Made by a program: the position numbers and the translations under genes. Below, piece by piece: positions 8,285 through 33,231 of a DNA stretch of 64,000 nucleotides. Every line of letters begins with the position of its first letter. Positions within the stretch are counted from its first letter, which is position 1. The notes beneath the pieces are model-generated. The model was given only the letters and a program-made list of their open reading frames with translations. It ran no database searches and had not been told where the DNA came from. Location: the NCBI RefSeq assembly GCF_053078305.1, contig NZ_CP166879.1; one strand, given 5' to 3'.

Positions 8285-8983
8285 TTACTGCGAAAGTTTA
8301 TTGATGGAAAGGAAACCGCCAAAATTGACCGCCATGCCGCGCATCTCACACCCGCGCATGCATTTACTGCATCTGTCCTTCCGGATATCCGTGGTAGGGT
8401 TGTCGAACTCATCCGCCACTGCCGGACCGTTATACCCGCACTCATCGCCCCGGTAATCCCACATACAGGTGTTCGCCAGCATGATGCGACCGGGAAACAG
8501 CGCCCCGTCCGTCTCCGTCGGTGTCGCCAGCACAAACGAGGCCGTCATGGCCGTCAGCGCTGATAACTGCTCCACCACCCACCGGTCCGTCAGCTCCTGC
8601 TCCGGGTCTGCCTCCGGATTCCCCGCCACAAAGTTCACCGCATCAAGAAAACGCGCATACACCCGGCGGCGGACCACCGTGGCACCCACCAGGCTCTGCA
8701 AATCCTCCGCCATCCCGGTGACAAGGCCGAAAAGATTGGACACCGTCAGCGACGGGCGGGCACTGCTGCCCTTTCCGTTCATCTCAAAGCCGCTGCCCTC
8801 AATCGGGTACGCCTGATATTCACGCCCCTGCCAGGTCACCGGCTCCCCTTTTTCATTCAGCTCATTGCAGAAAAAATACCGCTCACCGCCCTGCACCGTC
8901 AGGTCGATTTCCCAGAGCACCACCCGCGGTGACTGCTCTGACTTAACCGACTCGTTCAGGCTTTCTTCGTGAATATCCTGCAT
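8285..8983 (-). CDS. L: Minor tail protein L
   Basis: Internal ATG in track ORF 8285..9025 gives MQDIHEESLNE...GFLSINKLSQ, 232 aa as lambda L. Confidence 0.9.
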   Translation of the reverse strand: MQDIHEESLNESVKSEQSPRVVLWEIDLTVQGGERYFFCNELNEKGEPVTWQGREYQAYPIEGSGFEMNGKGSSARPSLTVSNLFGLVTGMAEDLQSLVGATVVRRRVYARFLDAVNFVAGNPEADPEQELTDRWVVEQLSALTAMTASFVLATPTETDGALFPGRIMLANTCMWDYRGDECGYNGPAVADEFDNPTTDIRKDRCSKCMRGCEMRGMAVNFGGFLSINKLSQ

Positions 8984-26566: not shown

Positions 26567-27040
26567 CTAGTTAATACACTGAGTGCGGATATATTCCTGA
26601 AGCATTCTCAATGCTGCCTGGTCGCTGATGATTCCGTCTCTGATACCGAGAACGTTTCGTCCAGCAACCGGAGAGAGTTCGACGGCGGCATCATTGCCCA
26701 CGCCGGAGGTGCCGGTGGCTTCACGCACGGTACCGGGGCAGGTGGCGTTGATCCGCAGGCGCTTACGACCAGCGGCAACATCAGCACGCAGAGTTTCATT
26801 TTCAGCTCTCGCATCGGCTAATTCCCTCGAGTATTTTGCATCGAGCGCAGCAACATCGCGCTGGCGCACCTGCATATCAGTAATGGTTGCGTTTGCCAGC
26901 TCCAGCTCTCTGGCTTTTTTATCACGCTGCGCTTTGTAGGTGATGGCGTTATCGCGGTAATGATTCAGCCCCAGACTAAGCGCACCACAGACCACCAGCA
27001 GAATAACGGTAAACGCGGAAAGCATTCGGTTTATGCTCAC
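26567..27040 (-). CDS. Rz: Rz i-spanin
   Basis: 157 aa; N-terminal TM segment, coiled-coil periplasmic domain; Rz1 embedded in alternative frame. Confidence 0.85.
26608..26802 (-). CDS. Rz1: Rz1 o-spanin lipoprotein (embedded in Rz)
   Basis: [36 protein letters not shown]...; lipobox, Pro-rich. Confidence 0.75.
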
Positions 27041-27168
27041 CCCAGCATCCCCGACGAAGATAACATCATCCAGCCCATGGAAAGAAAAAGAGCAACCAGC
27101 ATTAGTGAAAATGAAATGCCGATGATTACACAGAGGATCTTCGCCAGCATTATGAGTTTGTCTGACAT
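27037..27168 (-). CDS. Small membrane protein (43 aa) between endolysin and Rz
   Basis: [55 protein letters not shown]; stop overlaps Rz start. Confidence 0.45.
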
Positions 27169-27190
27169 GTTTAATCCTCCCTTCACGATT

Positions 27191-27367
27191 TCAACGCAAT
27201 GACCAGTTTTGCCAGCCCATACAGCATCGGAGACACAGCGATATACCGACCGCCACCCACTTAATAGCAAAAGCCAGTGCTCTGCTGATGTCATCAGTTA
27301 CTGGCGCTTTCAGTTCAAGGCCGTTTTTCATAGTCAACCTCAACAGAATTCGTTTATACTTTTCCAT
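27191..27367 (-). CDS. Small protein (58 aa) with C-terminal hydrophobic segment
   Basis: MEKYKRILLRLTMKNGLELKAPVTDDISRALAFAIKWVAVGISLCLRCCMGWQNWSLR; AAGGGAGAA RBS. Confidence 0.4.
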   Translation of the reverse strand: MEKYKRILLRLTMKNGLELKAPVTDDISRALAFAIKWVAVGISLCLRCCMGWQNWSLR

Positions 27368-27523
27368 GTTCTCCCTTGCCTTATCCAAGGTCAGAAACAC
27401 AAAACCCCGCTTGCTGCCAACAAACGGGGTTTTTACTTTTATTCACTTAGGTTTTGCCAGTTCGCAGGATTTCGTGTTATCCGTCCGCGTTGGCCAACGT
27501 CATTTTTCAGCAAAATATTCTGC

Positions 27524-28057
27524 TTATCTGTCGATACCCCAGCACGCCAGCGCGCTCTCCTGGTCACGACGGGATACCTGACCATAACAGTTATTTGAGC
27601 GGATACGGCAGTCTCTGCCACCGTCCTTAATCCACCAGCGAAGCGCCTCACACGCTCCCCTGCGATCTCCTGCATTAATTCGTTTATAAAACGTCGACGT
27701 GAAACACTTACCCGGGCCAATGTTGTAAGGACAGAATGACGCAATACCCGCTTTCTGGGGTTCAGTCAGTGGCACTCTGATGTTTTTCTCCACCCATGCC
27801 AGCGCCTTATCCCGTTCAATGGCGTTAACCTGGTCGCATTTTTCCTTCGACAGCTTCATGCCAGGGACGACAGGCTTACCATCCACCCGGGTGGCACCAC
27901 GGCAGATGGTCCAGATACCCGCACCATCACGGTATGCCGTGGTGTGGTTACCTTCTTTTTCGTCAAGAAACTGGTCGAGGATTTCAGGCGCAGAAGCACC
28001 TGCAGCAATCAGCGCCAGAACGACCGCTGATAAACCATAGCGGAATTTCCTGCTCAT
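27524..28057 (-). CDS. R: SAR endolysin (phage lysozyme, R21-like)
   Basis: 177 aa; N-terminal SAR/signal-anchor helix, lysozyme catalytic region. Confidence 0.9.
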   Translation of the reverse strand: MSRKFRYGLSAVVLALIAAGASAPEILDQFLDEKEGNHTTAYRDGAGIWTICRGATRVDGKPVVPGMKLSKEKCDQVNAIERDKALAWVEKNIRVPLTEPQKAGIASFCPYNIGPGKCFTSTFYKRINAGDRRGACEALRWWIKDGGRDCRIRSNNCYGQVSRRDQESALACWGIDR

Positions 28058-28061
28058 CAGC

Positions 28062-28277
28062 TTACTCTCCCCGCGCCGCCTTACGCCGGTCCTCTCTGAT
28101 TTTGAAATACAGGTTCGTCAGATATGTCAGCAGCCCAAACAGCAGACTCCCCAGCACGCCTATTGCCGCCCACTGAGACGGGGAAACCCTGTCCAGCAAC
28201 TGCAGGAACCAGTAGCCCGTTCCCACCGCTGACGTGGTGTATGACACACCTGTTGTGATTTTTTCCATCTGGTACAT
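28062..28277 (-). CDS. S: Pinholin (S21-like), dual-start
   Basis: [71 protein letters not shown]. Confidence 0.9.
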
Positions 28278-28353
28278 ACCCCGTCTCCCGCAAGCCGGAA
28301 GCTCACAACAATATAAAGACCACCGGCACACACCGATGGTCCCTTGCGCATGC

Positions 28354-28599
28354 TTACATCATCATGTCGCTGTCAGGTGTGGGGTCACCGCCATCTGAAG
28401 CACTCCCCTCACCCGCGATACCTTCCGGCTCCGGAACTGCCGGTGCGCCCAGCAGTTCATCCAGAATGGCATCCACTTCTGCATCAAGACGCGCCTCAAG
28501 GTTCTGGCGGAGTTTCTGTTTCAGTGCGCTCAGGACTTCTTCAGAGCGCAGGACTTCCTTCACTGCCTCTGCAGTGACCAGGGATGTAATTTCTGACAT
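28354..28599 (-). CDS. Hypothetical acidic protein upstream of holin
   Basis: Internal start [28 protein letters not shown]... of track ORF 28354..28773. Confidence 0.35.
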
Positions 28600-28639
28600 G
28601 GGATTTTCTCGTCGAAAGGTGTGATTAAGAAAGTTGCAG

Positions 28640-28819
28640 CTAAATGAGCGGCTCTTCGGGTTTGCTTCCGGCTGACTGACTGGCGCTGATTTTCTCTGCG
28701 GCCCTTTTATCAATCTGCCTGCGCCAGAAATCGCGCACTGCCCTGTACCCACCCGAAAGAAGATACAGCACACAGACCGCCGTACAGAAGTACAGCATTA
28801 ACTGGTTCAGAAATGTCAT
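28640..28819 (-). CDS. Small membrane protein (59 aa)
   Basis: Read by eye: MTFLNQLMLYFCTAVCVLYLLSGGYRAVRDFWRRQIDKRAAEKISASQSAGSKPEEPLI. Confidence 0.3.
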   Translation of the reverse strand: MTFLNQLMLYFCTAVCVLYLLSGGYRAVRDFWRRQIDKRAAEKISASQSAGSKPEEPLI

Positions 28820-28969
28820 GGTTTCTCACCGTGATAGTTGACATGATTTACTTATTTTTGTAGAAAAACACCGCAGACTTCGGTGTCATCATGGTCGTTT
28901 TACCAGCCGCCAGCATTCATGTAGTGGACACAGTTCATCCCTTTCCTTCATTGCTGGCGGCCTTTTTTA

Positions 28970-30937
28970 TCATGCCGCGGCGTCCGCGTTGTTCACTTCC
29001 ACCTTCACACTGTCAATCAGCAGCGTATATGTCGCCGCCTTTGATATGCCTGTCAGTTGCAGTTTGTCCGCCGCCCCTGATGCCGGAGATTTCACCAGTG
29101 TGAACGGTGTACCCCGTTTCTCATCCAGTACCGGCGTCACCTGAATGCTGTTGTTTCCGGCAAACTCAAAAGCCAGTGTGTGCCATCCGTTATCAAAGAC
29201 CCCGAACGTATCCAGCTTCGCATTCTGCTTCTTGTGGTACATCGCGTTCAGGTTCGTCGCATCCGTCTGCAGGAAGAAGGACATCAGCATGTCGTTGCCT
29301 TCCTCTGCCAGCGTCACTCCCTCCGGCAGGGACGACAACTGCCAGTAAATACCCAGGGCAAACTGATTCGGCACCAGTGCGCCCGGCACCTTAAACCGCA
29401 CGCTCACACGTCCGCCTTTCTTCAGCAACTCTGCCCCCTTCCCGGCGGCATCATGCTCCAGAAACCAGATGTGGCTTTCCGGTTTGTTCAGTTGCAGGGC
29501 CTTACCACCGGTGGCACCCTCATCACTGACCACGGCCTCAGCGATGTTTTTATCAACACTGTCTCCGCTCGCCGGTTTGTGATAATAGCGCCAGCCCTGT
29601 GATGCCAGGTCTTCACCGGACGCCAGCAGACTCATCAGGGTTCGGTTACTGACCGGGGCTTCCGGCTCTCTCTCCGGGCCTTCACCGGAAGGTCCGGTGG
29701 GCTTCACCGTATCAGGCTGTTTTCCGGTAATGAATTCAGCGGTTCTCCCGGCATGCACCAGAATCGCCGTTGCCAGACGGTCGGAAATAATCCCACGGCG
29801 AGCCCATGAACTGAAATGGCTGGCCCTGTCCACAGATGTCCAGGTCTTCTGGTCATTACGCCACTTTGAACCGTAATAACCGACGGCTTCCAGGTCCGGG
29901 TCTTCTGCCGGGTCATTGGTCTGCACATTCGCACCATTCTCATCCGTCATTAACGGTACAAAGAAAATGTTCTGCGACTCCTTACCCTTATACCCTCCGT
30001 ATACTGATGCATACCCTTCCGCATGACGCTGCTTCCAGAAATACGTTGTGTCCCCGCAAATCCACGGTACCGCTGATGCGCTGCCTCCTGTGCTCTGTGA
30101 TGCCTGACCGGCAAGCTCCGTTCTGAACTGATTCACCATCGCACTAAACAGCCCCGGATGCTGCGCATGCGTCCCCACTGCCGCATCACCTTCTCCCTGC
30201 ATCCACACCACCGCAAGCAGACGGTTTTTCGGGTTCTTCGCCAGTGCGGCTTTAGTCCGGCTCACCAAATCCTGATACAGCGGCTTACCCACACCCCAGC
30301 GCAGTGAATTTTCCGATGCACCGGCTGATTCGTTGTATGTGCCGTCTGCACCCGTTGTGAATGCCGAAGCACCACGGCAGCACGGAACCAGCAGAATGCC
30401 CGCATTCGCCGGTATAAACGGCAGCAGTTTTTTGGCGATATGCAGCCCCTGCCCCACGGTTCCGTACTGCCCCTTTGACAGGTCCGCTTTCGGATGGTTA
30501 AGACGGCTCATGTCCTGCACATCATGCAGACAATGGTCCGCCGGAATAATGTCGTTATACTTACAGGCGGCACCGCCCGGTGTCACCGTACTGCGACGCG
30601 CCAGCTGCTTAATACGCGGGTCCGGACGGTCATATGTCTCCGGCAGCGGAAGGCCTTCACCATACGACATGCCGTTTGACTGCCCTGCCAGAACCACAAC
30701 AAAGTAATACTCCGGGTCGCTGGTGGCGCTGATTACTGTGCCTTCTCCATCCGACGGCTTCACCACCACAGGTGTGGTGACATCACCTTCCGCCGCAATG
30801 GCCTGCATCAGGGTATAAGGCGTGATGGCCACCGGGCTGCCAAATGGCTGCCACCCCTCCTTCAGTTTTTGAGTCAGTCGCTCCGCAAGGTCTGACGGCG
30901 ACGCCGCCCTGACCACGTCATAGTGTTTAAATGCCAT
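28970..30937 (-). CDS. NanS-p-type sialate O-acetylesterase (SGNH/DUF303 with C-terminal lectin-like domain)
   Basis: 655 aa; VVLAGQSNGMSYG motif; position between the toxin slot and the holin as in Stx prophages. Confidence 0.8.
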   Translation of the reverse strand: MAFKHYDVVRAASPSDLAERLTQKLKEGWQPFGSPVAITPYTLMQAIAAEGDVTTPVVVKPSDGEGTVISATSDPEYYFVVVLAGQSNGMSYGEGLPLPETYDRPDPRIKQLARRSTVTPGGAACKYNDIIPADHCLHDVQDMSRLNHPKADLSKGQYGTVGQGLHIAKKLLPFIPANAGILLVPCCRGASAFTTGADGTYNESAGASENSLRWGVGKPLYQDLVSRTKAALAKNPKNRLLAVVWMQGEGDAAVGTHAQHPGLFSAMVNQFRTELAGQASQSTGGSASAVPWICGDTTYFWKQRHAEGYASVYGGYKGKESQNIFFVPLMTDENGANVQTNDPAEDPDLEAVGYYGSKWRNDQKTWTSVDRASHFSSWARRGIISDRLATAILVHAGRTAEFITGKQPDTVKPTGPSGEGPEREPEAPVSNRTLMSLLASGEDLASQGWRYYHKPASGDSVDKNIAEAVVSDEGATGGKALQLNKPESHIWFLEHDAAGKGAELLKKGGRVSVRFKVPGALVPNQFALGIYWQLSSLPEGVTLAEEGNDMLMSFFLQTDATNLNAMYHKKQNAKLDTFGVFDNGWHTLAFEFAGNNSIQVTPVLDEKRGTPFTLVKSPASGAADKLQLTGISKAATYTLLIDSVKVEVNNADAAA

Positions 30938-31149
30938 GAATCCTCCCGGTCGGGATAATGTTGTGAGTCAGATAAGGGGCGGGCTGAAGTCCGGAAGTTA
31001 CAGGACAATGACAGAAGGAAGACTACAGCCCGCAATACGAAAAAGGCCGCGCAGTTGCGCAGAGTGATTACTGTCGGGTATTATTCGCCAGCTGAAAAAT
31101 TGATTACTTCACGTTTTGTTGTTTATTCCTTGCTGCCCGCATCTCACCA

Positions 31150-31960
31150 TGCGGGCTTTTTTTATCCATAAGAAAGCCCCTCCGGAGAGGGGCTGGAGTA
31201 GCGCTATGTACCGTTCATTGCATGATGCCGGGTGCCTCCCGGTGAGTTCAGCCCGGTGCCACCGAACCCGCGTCATTCTCGCTAACGATCATCAGAGACC
31301 ATACCGTACACCAGCCGCCCCTCCGCACAGGGGGATTCATCATGCAGAAATTTTTTAACAAATTCTCAGTCGGGAAGACAACCTTCAACTGACTGAATTG
31401 TGAGCAACATAGCATTTAACGGGGAACCTGTTTTCTGCAGTAAAAAGGCCCACCGGAGCGGACGGGCCTGGAAGGATAGCGGTCATGTGATGCCGGTTTC
31501 CCGGTAACTCAGCACCGGTATCTGAGTCAACGTTTTCTCTACTGGGTCATTTCCGATACGCCCTGCCTGCTGACAGGCTTTCATCACATCTGAAAATATA
31601 GCACCCTGACTGATACTGTAGTACCCAAGGTTCCAGAAACTGTGATGTATCCGGCACAGAAAAGCCCCTCCGGAGAGGGGCTGACGCTGCGTATCTGTAT
31701 CATCATGCGCATGGTGCCGGGTGCCTCCCGGTGAGTTCAGTATCAGCACCTGAACCCGCACAGAAAGGATAAGGGATGTAACCAAACACCTGTCGCTGAT
31801 ATGCCCCTCCGCTCAGGGGGATTCACCATGCCAGTTTCTTTTAACAAACTCCCCGCAAATCAGACAACTGTCAACCGTCTGAATTGTGAGACATTTAAAA
31901 TTTTCGGGGCAACAGGAAGACAATCATCACGACACCGGCAACCAGCGACCGGCACCAGAT
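31150..31960. repeat. Two diverged copies (~490-bp spacing) of a structured non-coding element
   Basis: Shared segments AAGCCCCTCCGGAGAGGGGCT, TGCCGGGTGCCTCCCGGTGAGTTCAG, CCCCTCCGCxCAGGGGGATTCA, CTGAATTGTGAG at ~31174/31664, 31223/31713, 31317/31804, 31394/31879. Confidence 0.6.
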
Positions 31961-32956
31961 TTAACGTATGTGCACACAACCTGAACCGGCATCAAAAAAC
32001 AAACCGTGCACTGACAGAAAACGGGAAACCTCCGTCCGCTGATCATCACTCATTAAGGACCACACAAAGGCGTTATGCTCATCTTCAAGTTTCCGTCTTC
32101 TTGTTTGCCTTACAAGCAACTCAGCCGTCACCTGTACAATGTCAATGACCTCCTTCTCTTCAGCAATGTACGGCCTGTTCCAGTTGTCTGTGTTAATCTT
32201 CTCCGTCACCGGCGCTGACTTTTTGCAAGTTTCCCCATTAAACCCGACGCCATAAACAACAACATCATCGCTTTGCTTTTCGTTATCAATAATGACGAAT
32301 AATACAGAAACCGATGTATCAGCGAACCCGCCTGAAATCTGAACCAACTCAACAACGCGGTTGCCAAAATACTGACGCATTGCCAGCTCACCACGCCTGT
32401 AACCAACCCCGGGAAAGCACAAAAAAAATGAAAATCTTGCCTTCATGCTCGCCAGAACATAAAACGCGTCATCCAGAACACCGGAGGTCTTTTTATAAGG
32501 CATCATCGCTGAAATCTTCTCCCTGATATCCGCGCTCTGTGCTTTGTACTGTAGCGAAAAAGGCGGATTCATGATGACACAATCGAACGTGTCCGTGTCA
32601 CTGACATCATCGATGGCGTTGAAGAAATTTTCATTGACCGTCTTCACTGTGGCATCCGGGAAATTATCCGGGATATGCACCAACGGAGAGGCCTGTATAT
32701 CCACAGCATACAGACTTCCCACCGTGAGAAACTGCTCCAGTTGCCCGGAGCCACACGCACCATCAAAAATACTCAGGGGCAGATCACCACAATATTCCCG
32801 CACTTTTTCAGCGACAAACCGACGCAAAGGAACGGACGTGATGTACTCTGCGTATTTTCTGGCGACATCGCGATTATTGGACTCCTGAAAAACCATTTGT
32901 GAAAGGCTCTGTGGTTGATATGCGCCGGGCGTGGCGCGGAGGCAAAAAAGGCCCAC
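31961..32956 (-). CDS. DNA N6-adenine methyltransferase, gamma-like motif order (orphan)
   Basis: FDGACGSGQL (motif I) followed by VIMNPPF (motif IV); start may be internal at ~32896. Confidence 0.7.
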   Translation of the reverse strand: MGLFCLRATPGAYQPQSLSQMVFQESNNRDVARKYAEYITSVPLRRFVAEKVREYCGDLPLSIFDGACGSGQLEQFLTVGSLYAVDIQASPLVHIPDNFPDATVKTVNENFFNAIDDVSDTDTFDCVIMNPPFSLQYKAQSADIREKISAMMPYKKTSGVLDDAFYVLASMKARFSFFLCFPGVGYRRGELAMRQYFGNRVVELVQISGGFADTSVSVLFVIIDNEKQSDDVVVYGVGFNGETCKKSAPVTEKINTDNWNRPYIAEEKEVIDIVQVTAELLVRQTRRRKLEDEHNAFVWSLMSDDQRTEVSRFLSVHGLFFDAGSGCVHIR

Positions 32957-32981: not shown

Positions 32982-33058
32982 TGGTGCGTTGTACTGGATT
33001 CGAACCAGTGACCGATTGCTTAGAAGGCAATTGCTCTGTCCGGCTGAGCTAACAACGC
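32982..33058 (-). tRNA. argO: tRNA-Arg (anticodon TCT), argO-like
   Basis: Cloverleaf read by eye; anticodon loop CTTCTAA; GGTTCGAATCC T-arm; CCA end. Confidence 0.8.
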
Positions 33059-33071
33059 AGTGTACAGATAA

Positions 33072-33148
33072 TGGACCGCCATCGAGGACTCGAACCCCGC
33101 GCAACCAGCTTCGAAGGCTGGCGCTCTATCCCGATGAGCTAATGGCGG
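33072..33148 (-). tRNA. argN: tRNA-Arg (anticodon TCG), argN-like
   Basis: Anticodon loop CTTCGAA; GGTTCGAGTCC T-arm. Confidence 0.75.
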
Positions 33149-33155
33149 TATGTGA

Positions 33156-33231
33156 TGGTGGCCCTTGCTGGATTTGAACCAGCGACCTGGCGATTATGAG
33201 TCGCTCGCTCTCACCACTGAGCTAAAGGGCC
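33156..33231 (-). tRNA. ileZ: tRNA with CAT anticodon, ileX-like (tRNA-Ile2), ileZ-like
   Basis: GGCCCTTTAGCTCAGTGG...GACTCATAATCGC...GGTTCAAATCC...CCA; close to E. coli ileX. Confidence 0.75.

What the first reader, a model, noticed from the sequence alone, without database searches (positions are those of the whole stretch)
28354..28969. Small ORFs between NanS-p and the holin
Between the esterase and S lie an 81-aa acidic protein and a 59-aa predicted membrane protein, both without recognisable family. In lambdoid phages this interval normally carries only regulatory sequence, so these are additional unexplained cargo near the lysis genes.
Basis: seen in the sequence. Interest (0 to 1): 0.3.

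Follow-up and report, generated by a model that had tools for sequence, protein, structure and literature searches.

The report
Two small genes beside phage holin
The two small ORFs between the esterase and the holin are real, conserved phage genes of two already-catalogued families of unknown function (DUF1378 and DUF826). Comparison with distant phages shows that the membrane one is a recurrent extra gene of phage lysis cassettes, so it probably helps control when the cell bursts.

Summary
On the minus strand lie a 59-aa single-pass membrane protein (28640-28819) and an 81-aa acidic protein (28354-28599), between nanS-p and the pinholin S.

The claim "without recognisable family" is wrong. 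They are Pfam DUF1378 (E 6.5e-38) and DUF826 (E 3e-41). RefSeq names them so, with sequences 100% identical to these, and one paper on Stx2a phages mentions them.

Both are under purifying selection (pN/pS 0.15 and 0.18). Every complete copy of either ORF in 84 related loci is open. They occur in about 300 Stx-type phages and in 1003 of 5426 complete E. coli genomes, always in the order nanS-p, DUF1378, DUF826, S.

New here: distant DUF1378 members (Enterobacterales prophages and one Stenotrophomonas phage) sit at the end of lysis cassettes, in the order holin, endolysin, Rz/Rz1, DUF1378. In 26 of 35 IMG/VR loci the start overlaps the spanin stop. The neighbouring endolysin is usually a SAR endolysin. 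DUF826 was only ever seen directly downstream of DUF1378.

Best reading (inferred, not shown): these are late-operon accessory lysis factors acting at the inner membrane. They would work like Mu releasin gp25 or LambdaSo Lcc6 without detectable homology. They are dispensable, because about 74% of copies of this holin in E. coli lack the pair. The entity is already known; interest is modest.

The parts
28640..28819 (-). DUF1378 gene: 59-aa single-pass membrane protein. It has 2 residues before the transmembrane helix (about residues 3-24), a conserved GG[YW]xx[IV]R interface motif and a basic 34-aa cytoplasmic tail. Predicted topology is N-out/C-in.
   Evidence: Pfam PF07125 at 129 bits and PHROG 494. 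pN/pS 0.148. Intact in 84 of 84 loci. AF2 predicts one helix over residues 3-50. Hydropathy and charge.
28354..28599 (-). DUF826 gene: 81-aa acidic cytoplasmic protein. It has a conserved N-terminal helical part (residues 1-51), a variable acidic Pro/Glu/Ser-rich disordered tail, and a conserved C-terminal MM[ML].
   Evidence: Pfam PF05696 at 140 bits and PHROG 311. pN/pS 0.183 for the N-terminal part and 0.29 for the tail. Alignment. AF2 gives helices 10-17 and 20-49 at pLDDT 80-92, with the tail below 50.
28600..28639 (-). 40-nt spacer between the two genes, with the conserved sequence ACGAGAAAAUCCC before the DUF826 ATG (weak Shine-Dalgarno).
   Evidence: 12 sequence variants across the loci, all keeping [CG]GAGAAAA before the ATG (coordinates).
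28820..28969 (-). Spacer between nanS-p and DUF1378. It holds an A-run plus a strong hairpin (28905-28962), which read on the + strand is a stem followed by TTTTTTAT. It then holds a short hairpin plus U-run (28860-28887), a conserved TGTCAAC box and the GGTGAG Shine-Dalgarno sequence.
   Evidence: Sequence. Fold of -41.7 kcal/mol, z -3.15. The same layout occurs in otherwise dissimilar variants and in a P2-like prophage. No sigma-70-like promoter on this strand.
28305..28344 (-). Conserved stem-loop plus U-rich run between the DUF826 stop and the S ribosome-binding site. It looks like an intrinsic terminator and would be read through by Q-modified polymerase (inferred).
   Evidence: Terminator scan: 13-bp stem. 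Four or more sequence versions keep the stem, and 3 pairs show compensatory changes.
28062..28277 (-). S: P21-family class II holin (pinholin) with a dual-start motif, Met1 and Met4.
   Evidence: Pfam PF04971, E 9e-33. RefSeq name 'class II holin family protein'.
27524..28057 (-). R: lysozyme with a SAR-type N-terminus (MSRKFRYGLSAVVLALIAAGASAP).
   Evidence: Pfam PF00959. N-terminal hydropathy.
26567..27040 (-). Rz i-spanin, with embedded Rz1 (26608-26814, lipobox LVVSAC).
   Evidence: ORF list and translation.
28970..30937 (-). nanS-p: 655-aa esterase with DUF1737, SASA and DUF6645 domains. It is the upstream neighbour and, in the E. coli subfamily, the constant partner of DUF1378.
   Evidence: Pfam. 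Synteny.

Best explanation
The two ORFs are genuine late genes of a lambdoid prophage. They lie on the Q-dependent late transcript between nanS-p and S, so they are transcribed whenever the lysis genes are.

The 59-aa product (DUF1378) inserts in the inner membrane through its N-terminal helix, with a short basic tail in the cytoplasm. The 81-aa product (DUF826) is an acidic cytoplasmic helix with a disordered tail. It is found only next to DUF1378 and is probably its partner.

I infer that they are accessory lysis factors acting at the inner-membrane step: pinholin triggering and/or release of the SAR endolysin. That would tune lysis timing and, in Stx phages, toxin and virion release.

Shown: coding status, family membership, conservation, topology-type features and linkage to lysis cassettes. 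Inferred: co-transcription with S, a DUF1378-DUF826 interaction, and any effect on lysis.
For: (1) Real genes: Pfam and PHROG hits, pN/pS 0.15 and 0.18, intact in every related locus.

(2) Position: same strand, between nanS-p and S. No promoter-like site on that strand across the scanned span 27900-31300. nanS-p rises 1-2.4 log on mitomycin C induction (PMC10462455).

(3) Lysis-cassette linkage of DUF1378 in distant relatives (24-54% identity):
- In Stenotrophomonas phage BUCT709 the order is pinholin, SAR lysozyme, Rz/Rz1, DUF1378.
- Of 35 IMG/VR loci, 34 have DUF1378 within about 600 nt downstream of the spanin genes. In 26 of them the start overlaps the spanin stop.
- All 5 loci from GTDB species genomes (Pseudocitrobacter, Phytobacter, Brenneria, Pantoea, Mangrovibacter) have the same order.
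- The adjacency survives exchange of holin type (P21-type, lambda-S-type, HP1-type, others), endolysin type and spanin type.

(4) 26-27 of 28 neighbouring endolysins have SAR-like N-termini, as does R in the window.

(5) DUF826 occurs only directly downstream of DUF1378. This includes a distant lambdoid phage where both follow Rz (L089; PF05696 56.8 bits, hhalign 96%).

(6) Experimental precedents with the same architecture (small protein, N-terminal transmembrane helix, cytoplasmic tail): Mu gp25 releasin (PMC9239132) and LambdaSo Lcc6, which is required for pinholin/SAR lysis (bioRxiv 10.1101/2024.01.23.576932).
Against: - There is no experimental datum on these proteins. I found no Ribo-seq or proteomic record, and only one paper mentions them, without a function.
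- About 74% of copies of this same holin in complete E. coli genomes lack the pair (8930 against 2333 places). The pair is therefore not required for pinholin lysis.
- In the E. coli subfamily DUF1378 is tied to nanS-p as tightly as to S. In a P2-like prophage nanS-p plus DUF1378 sit together without DUF826, which also fits a cargo module.
- A few distant members accompany soluble endolysins and lambda-S-type holins (L089, L141, L142). One lies away from any lysis gene (L101).
- No sequence similarity to releasin (hhalign probability 0.2%).
- Terminator-like hairpins bracket the pair.
Confidence: 0.45

Rival explanations
1. The pair is cargo travelling with the esterase. nanS-p, DUF1378 and optionally DUF826 form a mobile accessory module whose small proteins serve the esterase or the host, for example in localisation, release or membrane physiology. 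On this reading they have nothing to do with the lysis mechanism, and their place next to S reflects only the insertion hot-spot.
For: In every E. coli-type locus DUF1378 directly follows a SASA/DUF6645 esterase with a similar spacer of about 140-155 nt. In a P2-like prophage the unit nanS-p plus DUF1378 lies after LysC with the same spacer layout. Most copies of this holin lack the pair. Terminator-like elements bracket the pair.
Against: More than 40 distant DUF1378 loci have no esterase at all. There the gene is embedded in, and often translationally coupled to, the lysis cassette. No promoter of its own was found.
Confidence: 0.22
2. The pair is a negative regulator of lysis of the antiholin or lysis-delay type. 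DUF1378 and/or DUF826 would hold the pinholin or the SAR endolysin inactive and so lengthen the latent period. This would resemble T4 RI/RIII or P2 LysA rather than promote lysis.
For: The linkage and topology evidence is the same as for the main explanation. The pair is dispensable, as modulators are. DUF826 is a small helical cytoplasmic protein about the size of T4 RIII; that comparison rests on my own recollection and was not tested.
Against: The two characterised proteins with this exact architecture, gp25 and Lcc6, promote lysis. S already encodes its own antiholin through the dual start.
Confidence: 0.15
3. The pair is a prophage-expressed fitness or exclusion factor. On this reading it is transcribed in the lysogen and protects against superinfection or alters the envelope.
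For: It includes a small membrane protein, lies in a known moron-rich interval, and has terminator-like hairpins on both sides.
Against: No promoter-like site upstream. No match to any PADLOC defence model. Translational coupling to Rz in distant phages implies late expression.
Confidence: 0.08
4. The ORFs are not functional proteins; they are conserved only because the DNA or RNA is.
For: None beyond the hairpins in the spacers.
Against: pN/pS of 0.15-0.18 with an excess of third-position changes. Protein-level conservation down to 24-36% identity in unrelated DNA. All copies open.
Confidence: 0.03

Closest known systems
Pfam DUF1378 (PF07125) / PHROG 494, and Pfam DUF826 (PF05696) / PHROG 311
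   Same: The two proteins are full-length, high-scoring members. RefSeq proteins WP_000143455.1 and WP_001290219.1 are encoded by DNA 100% identical to the window's.
   Different: Nothing differs. The families have no assigned function, so membership names the proteins but does not explain them.
Phage Mu gp25 'releasin' (DUF2730)
   Same: Both are small N-out/C-in proteins with an N-terminal transmembrane helix and almost no periplasmic part. Both are encoded a few genes downstream of a SAR endolysin, and both families occasionally accompany soluble endolysins.
   Different: There is no detectable homology (hhalign probability 0.2%). gp25 is 99 aa with an anionic 73-aa cytoplasmic domain, whereas this protein is 59 aa with a basic tail. 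Mu has no holin, whereas these phages do.
Shewanella phage LambdaSo Lcc6
   Same: Lcc6 is 65 aa, with a transmembrane helix at residues 5-22 and a 43-aa cytoplasmic tail. It is needed for lysis by a pinholin plus SAR-endolysin system in a lambda-like phage. Its authors ask whether other lambdoid phages have such factors.
   Different: lcc6 lies far from the lysis cassette, near int/xis. Lcc6 is essential for lysis, while this pair is absent from most prophages with the same holin.
Lambdoid 'morons' in the Q-S interval (stx, nanS-p, tRNAs)
   Same: Same genomic interval, with flanking terminator-like hairpins.
   Different: No promoter of its own was found. DUF1378 relatives are integral to lysis cassettes elsewhere.

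Membership tests
Pfam DUF1378 (PF07125) | Full-length match to the profile above the gathering score of 25 bits | tested here: met
   129.1 bits, E 6.5e-38, profile positions 1-59 of 59. PHROG 494 E 1.3e-39.
Pfam DUF826 (PF05696) | Full-length match to the profile above the gathering score of 25 bits | tested here: met
   139.8 bits, E 3e-41, profile positions 1-75 of 75. PHROG 311 E 1e-36.
Releasin (Mu gp25, DUF2730) | Sequence membership in DUF2730 (PF10805) | tested here: not met
   No Pfam hit to DUF2730. hhalign of the DUF1378 profile against gp25 gives probability 0.2%.
Releasin (Mu gp25, DUF2730) | N-terminal transmembrane helix, N-out/C-in, with a minimal periplasmic part | tested here: met
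   Two residues precede the hydrophobic segment 3-21. Basic residues follow it (R26, R29, R33, R34). AF2 predicts a single helix over 3-50. Topology is predicted, not measured.
Releasin (Mu gp25, DUF2730) | Gene within a few genes of the endolysin gene | tested here: met
   In the window it lies two genes upstream of R. In distant relatives it lies 1-3 genes downstream of the endolysin.
Releasin (Mu gp25, DUF2730) | Promotes release of a SAR endolysin from the membrane | not testable with these tools
   This needs co-expression and fractionation experiments.
Lcc6-like lysis factor (LambdaSo) | Sequence similarity to Lcc6 (SO_4795) | not tested
   The Lcc6 sequence is not in the paper text or in any held supplement.
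Lcc6-like lysis factor (LambdaSo) | Protein of about 60 aa with an N-terminal transmembrane helix and cytoplasmic tail, in a phage with a pinholin and a SAR endolysin | tested here: met
   for the window. for the relatives.
Holin | Match to a holin family, or at least one transmembrane helix plus a lethal, triggerable hole-forming function | tested here: inconclusive
   No holin family in Pfam or PHROGs matches ORF59. A bona fide holin gene is always present alongside it. Function was not tested.
Moron (autonomous promoter-gene-terminator unit) | Own promoter upstream and terminator downstream | tested here: not met
   A terminator-like hairpin lies downstream, but no sigma-70-like promoter was found on the coding strand. 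The consensus scan is crude.
Known anti-phage defence proteins (PADLOC) | Match to a PADLOC model | tested here: not met
   0 families for both proteins at E up to 1.

The most novel reading that the evidence does not exclude
DUF1378, with DUF826 as an optional cytoplasmic partner, would define a third, sequence-unrelated family of small membrane-tethered accessory lysis factors, after Mu releasin and LambdaSo Lcc6. It would be built into the lysis cassettes of many Enterobacterales phages and present in essentially all Stx-converting phages that carry nanS-p. There it would set the timing of pinholin/SAR-endolysin lysis and hence of Shiga toxin release.
Probability: 0.35. Interest if true: 0.6.

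Novelty: already known. Interest (0 to 1): 0.33.

Why it matters
In Stx phages, toxin release depends on phage lysis. Two conserved, uncharacterised genes sit directly upstream of the holin in about 300 sequenced Stx-type phages and in about 18% of complete E. coli genomes.

If DUF1378 and DUF826 modulate the membrane step of lysis, they would affect latent period, burst size and the amount and timing of toxin released. They would also add a third example to the newly recognised class of small membrane accessory lysis proteins.

The practical gain from this check is smaller. It corrects the 'no family' claim and shows that the old single long ORF annotation (933W L0106, VT2-Sakai orf43) should be two genes. 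It also gives a concrete, cheap experiment.

Tried and rejected
- **Long 139-aa ORF (28354-28773), L0106/orf43 style.** Rejected: its extension overlaps ORF59 in a frame with pN/pS 2.1.
- **Antisense ORFs on the + strand (28364-28624 and 28344-28577).** One shares third codon positions with DUF826 and so shows low pN/pS. It carries stops in 18 of 40 alleles and in distant homologues. Rejected.
- **Homology of DUF1378 to Mu gp25.** hhalign probability 0.2%. Rejected as homology, kept as analogy.
- **DUF826 as the detached equivalent of the long cytoplasmic tail of 86-aa DUF1378 proteins.** hhalign probability 4%, and L089 has both a long tail and DUF826. Not supported.
- **Rfam.** No family in the region.
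- **PDB sequence search with the DUF826 profile.** Only noise, E above 0.5.
- **NCBIfam.** No model for either protein.
- **PADLOC.** Nothing.
- **Literature by locus tag** (L0106, Z1467, ECs1208-1210). Only irrelevant hits.
- **Ribo-seq and proteomics supplements of two EHEC papers.** No entry for these ORFs.
- **Collection scans with very diverse DUF1378 alignments.** A narrower alignment worked.
- **Fold search on the AF2 models.** Not attempted: each model is a single helix with a disordered tail, which would give meaningless matches.

Full report
**1. What is there**

All genes around the finding run on the minus strand. In order they are:
- nanS-p (28970-30937; DUF1737, SASA and DUF6645 domains);
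- a 59-aa ORF (28640-28819);
- an 81-aa ORF (28354-28599);
- the P21-family class II holin S (28062-28277);
- the lysozyme R (27524-28057);
- Rz/Rz1 (26567-27040).

The 59-aa protein has two residues, then a hydrophobic helix (about residues 3-24), then a basic tail; its pI is 9.2.

The mechanical ORF list also shows a 139-aa GTG ORF that contains the 81-aa ORF and overlaps the 59-aa ORF in another frame. That long version is what the original annotations of 933W (L0106) and VT2-Sakai (orf43) called.

**2. Are they genes?**

Yes. Both match Pfam families over their full length: DUF1378 (PF07125, 129 bits, E 6.5e-38) and DUF826 (PF05696, 140 bits, E 3e-41). They also match PHROGs 494 and 311, both of unknown function.

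I collected 80 related loci from IMG/VR plus three annotated records. The order nanS-p, DUF1378, DUF826, S is invariant. nanS-p diverges to 57% amino-acid identity while DUF1378 stays at 92-100% and S at 93-100%. All 84 DUF1378 ORFs and all 81 complete DUF826 ORFs are open and start with ATG.

Pairwise pN/pS among distinct alleles is 0.148 for DUF1378 and 0.183 for the DUF826 N-terminal 51 codons. The other two sense frames give 2.1-3.6. This also rejects the long 139-aa reading.

One antisense frame shares third codon positions with the sense frame and so inherits a low ratio. It is interrupted by stops in 18 of 40 DUF826 alleles, in all 22 DUF1378 alleles and in distant homologues.

**3. How known are they?**

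RefSeq annotates the 100%-identical DNA of E. coli 2013C-3033 as 'DUF826 domain-containing protein' (WP_001290219.1) and 'DUF1378 family protein' (WP_000143455.1). Reference phage records such as ArgO145 do the same.

The pair occurs in 306-309 phage records, all Stx-type or related E. coli/Shigella phages. It also occurs in 1003 of 5426 complete E. coli genomes, at 2333 places.

Only one paper in the library mentions them. It notes that 'some annotated genomes' have DUF826 and DUF1378 proteins between nanS-p and S, and gives no function. The claim 'without recognisable family' is therefore wrong. 'Unexplained' remains true.

**4. Anatomy**

DUF826 has three parts:
- an almost invariant N-terminal 51 residues, predicted as helices 10-17 and 20-49 (pLDDT 80-92);
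- a tail of variable length, acidic and rich in Pro, Glu, Ser and Thr, predicted disordered;
- a conserved C-terminal MM[ML].

DUF1378 is predicted as one continuous helix over residues 3-50. Across the whole family the conserved core is the transmembrane helix ending in GG[YW], followed by xx[IV]R[ND][YW] at the membrane interface.

The spacers are structured. After the nanS-p stop come an A-run and a strong hairpin (28905-28962). Read on the + strand, this is a stem followed by TTTTTTAT. A short hairpin with a U-run follows (28860-28887). Between DUF826 and S lies a 12-13-bp stem-loop with a U-rich run (28305-28344). Its stem is kept in at least four sequence versions, with three compensatory pairs.

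No sigma-70-like promoter is seen on the coding strand across the scanned span 27900-31300. Rfam finds nothing in the region.

**5. Where else DUF1378 is found: the informative result**

A profile search of 1.84 billion representative proteins finds only 37 hits, so this is a very small family. The distant members are 24-54% identical to the window's protein. Their contexts:
- **Stenotrophomonas phage vB_SmeS_BUCT709.** A true DUF1378 member (62 bits) is the last gene of the cassette: an unannotated P21-type pinholin, a SAR lysozyme, Rz/Rz1, then DUF1378, with an ATGA start/stop overlap.
- **35 IMG/VR loci of the distant subfamily.** In 34 the gene lies within about 600 nt downstream of the spanin genes. 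In 26 its ATG overlaps the Rz or Rz1 stop. It is usually followed by a terminator-like hairpin.
- **Five GTDB species genomes** (Pseudocitrobacter, Phytobacter, Brenneria, Pantoea, Mangrovibacter). All show holin, endolysin, Rz/Rz1, DUF1378.
- **Individual contigs** give the same picture, including a phage with a T7-type terminase that has holin_2_1, lysozyme, DUF1378.

The adjacency persists while the neighbours are swapped. Holins are of P21, lambda-S, HP1 and other types. There are several endolysin types and at least three spanin types. This argues for functional linkage rather than shared descent of one block.

Of 28 endolysins recognised next to distant DUF1378 genes, 26 have SAR-like N-termini as called. 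A 27th (L121) does too once its over-long ORF call is trimmed. Exceptions with soluble lysozymes and lambda-S-type holins exist (L089, L141, L142). One member sits away from any lysis gene (L101).

**6. DUF826**

In every case found, DUF826 lies directly downstream of DUF1378. This holds for the Stx-type loci, for L095/L096, and for L099/L100, where an HP1-type holin follows. It also holds for a distant lambdoid phage (L089/L090) in which the order is holin, lysozyme, DUF7940, Rz, DUF1378, DUF826. There the 68-aa protein scores 56.8 bits on PF05696 and 96% by hhalign.

DUF826 is absent from the 35 distant IMG/VR loci. It therefore looks like an optional companion of DUF1378.

**7. The E. coli subfamily is also tied to nanS-p**

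In all E. coli-type loci DUF1378 follows a SASA/DUF6645 esterase at a similar spacing. In a P2-like prophage the order is lysozyme, LysB, LysC, nanS-p, DUF1378, gpR. The spacer layout is the same and DUF826 is absent.

The same holin is present at 8930 places in 2449 E. coli genomes, against 2333 places for the pair. About three quarters of these holin copies therefore work without the pair. The pair is accessory, not essential.

**8. Mechanism**

*Shown:* two conserved coding genes on the late strand between nanS-p and S; a single-pass membrane protein and an acidic helical protein; recurrent, often translationally coupled, placement of DUF1378 in lysis cassettes that are mostly of the SAR-endolysin type.

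*From the literature:*
- nanS-p is induced 1-2.4 log by mitomycin C, in line with Q-dependent late transcription (PMC10462455).
- Mu gp25 'releasin' is a 99-aa N-out/C-in membrane-tethered protein needed to release a SAR endolysin (PMC9239132).
- LambdaSo Lcc6 is a 65-aa protein of the same architecture, strictly required for pinholin/SAR lysis (bioRxiv 10.1101/2024.01.23.576932).

*Inferred:* DUF1378 acts at the inner membrane on pinholin triggering or SAR-endolysin release, with DUF826 as a cytoplasmic partner, and so tunes lysis timing. I put this at about 0.45.

It works like a releasin or Lcc6 but is not a member of DUF2730 (hhalign probability 0.2%). Homology to Lcc6 could not be tested.

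*Rivals:*
- a nanS-p-linked cargo module unrelated to lysis (0.22);
- a lysis-delaying, antiholin-like regulator (0.15);
- a lysogen-expressed exclusion or fitness factor (0.08), against which there is no promoter and no PADLOC match;
- non-functional ORFs (0.03).

**9. Verdict**

The entity is already known as two named DUF families that are routinely annotated. Its function is still unknown.

The added value here is threefold:
- evidence that the two-gene annotation is right and the old long ORF wrong;
- a comparative argument that DUF1378 is a lysis-cassette accessory gene and DUF826 its companion;
- a direct experimental test.

Interest is modest (0.33). If the accessory-lysis reading holds (probability about 0.35), interest rises to about 0.6, because it would bear on Shiga toxin release.

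Noticed in passing
window 31164-31374, 31654-31860 (and weakly 31440-31613), minus strand: Two strong copies and one weak copy of the Rfam sRNA family STnc100 (168, 135 and 28.5 bits) lie between the methyltransferase gene and nanS-p, on the late-gene strand.
   Followed up: no
window 31961-32956 (-), 32982-33231 (-): Downstream of the tRNA-Met/Arg/Arg cluster, where Stx phages carry stxAB, this prophage has a SAM-dependent DNA methyltransferase gene instead. It is a non-Stx relative of Stx phages (compare).
   Followed up: partly
window 28905-28969: The hairpin right after the nanS-p stop is preceded by an A-run on the coding strand. On the + strand it therefore reads as a stem followed by TTTTTTAT, an intrinsic terminator facing antisense to the late genes. 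The same layout occurs in dissimilar variants and in a P2-like prophage.
   Followed up: partly
L084 2721-2936 and 3697-3891 (Stenotrophomonas phage vB_SmeS_BUCT709, OM816835): The deposited annotation lacks the P21-type pinholin gene (PF04971, 75 bits) upstream of the lysozyme. It also lacks the embedded Rz1 lipoprotein gene.
   Followed up: yes
L003 5308-5754 (933W ST933Wp43/L0106); L138 1327-1746 (VT2-Sakai orf43): Older reference annotations call one long ORF of 139-148 aa in place of the two genes and omit DUF1378. The selection pattern argues against the long ORF.
   Followed up: yes
L087 3186-3449; L089 3271-3477; L113, L127, L142: Another small membrane protein family of unknown function, DUF7940 (PF25612), recurs between the endolysin and Rz genes in lysis cassettes with lambda-S-type holins.
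   Followed up: no
L092 4184-4414: In a phage with a T7-type terminase, DUF1378 is followed by a 76-aa acidic Ala/Glu/Pro-rich ORF. It has no Pfam match but the same general character as DUF826.
   Followed up: partly
window 27041-27523 (-); loci L004-L083: The distance from S to R and from R to Rz varies between related prophages, from 8 nt to about 1.5 kb between S and R. Here R and Rz are separated by about 480 nt holding small ORFs, one with a hydrophobic stretch (27037-27294). These are insertion hot-spots inside the lysis cassette.
   Followed up: no
E. coli complete genomes: This P21-type holin is present at 8930 places in 2449 of 5426 genomes, up to 14 copies per genome. Only about a quarter of those places carry the DUF1378-DUF826 pair.
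   Followed up: partly
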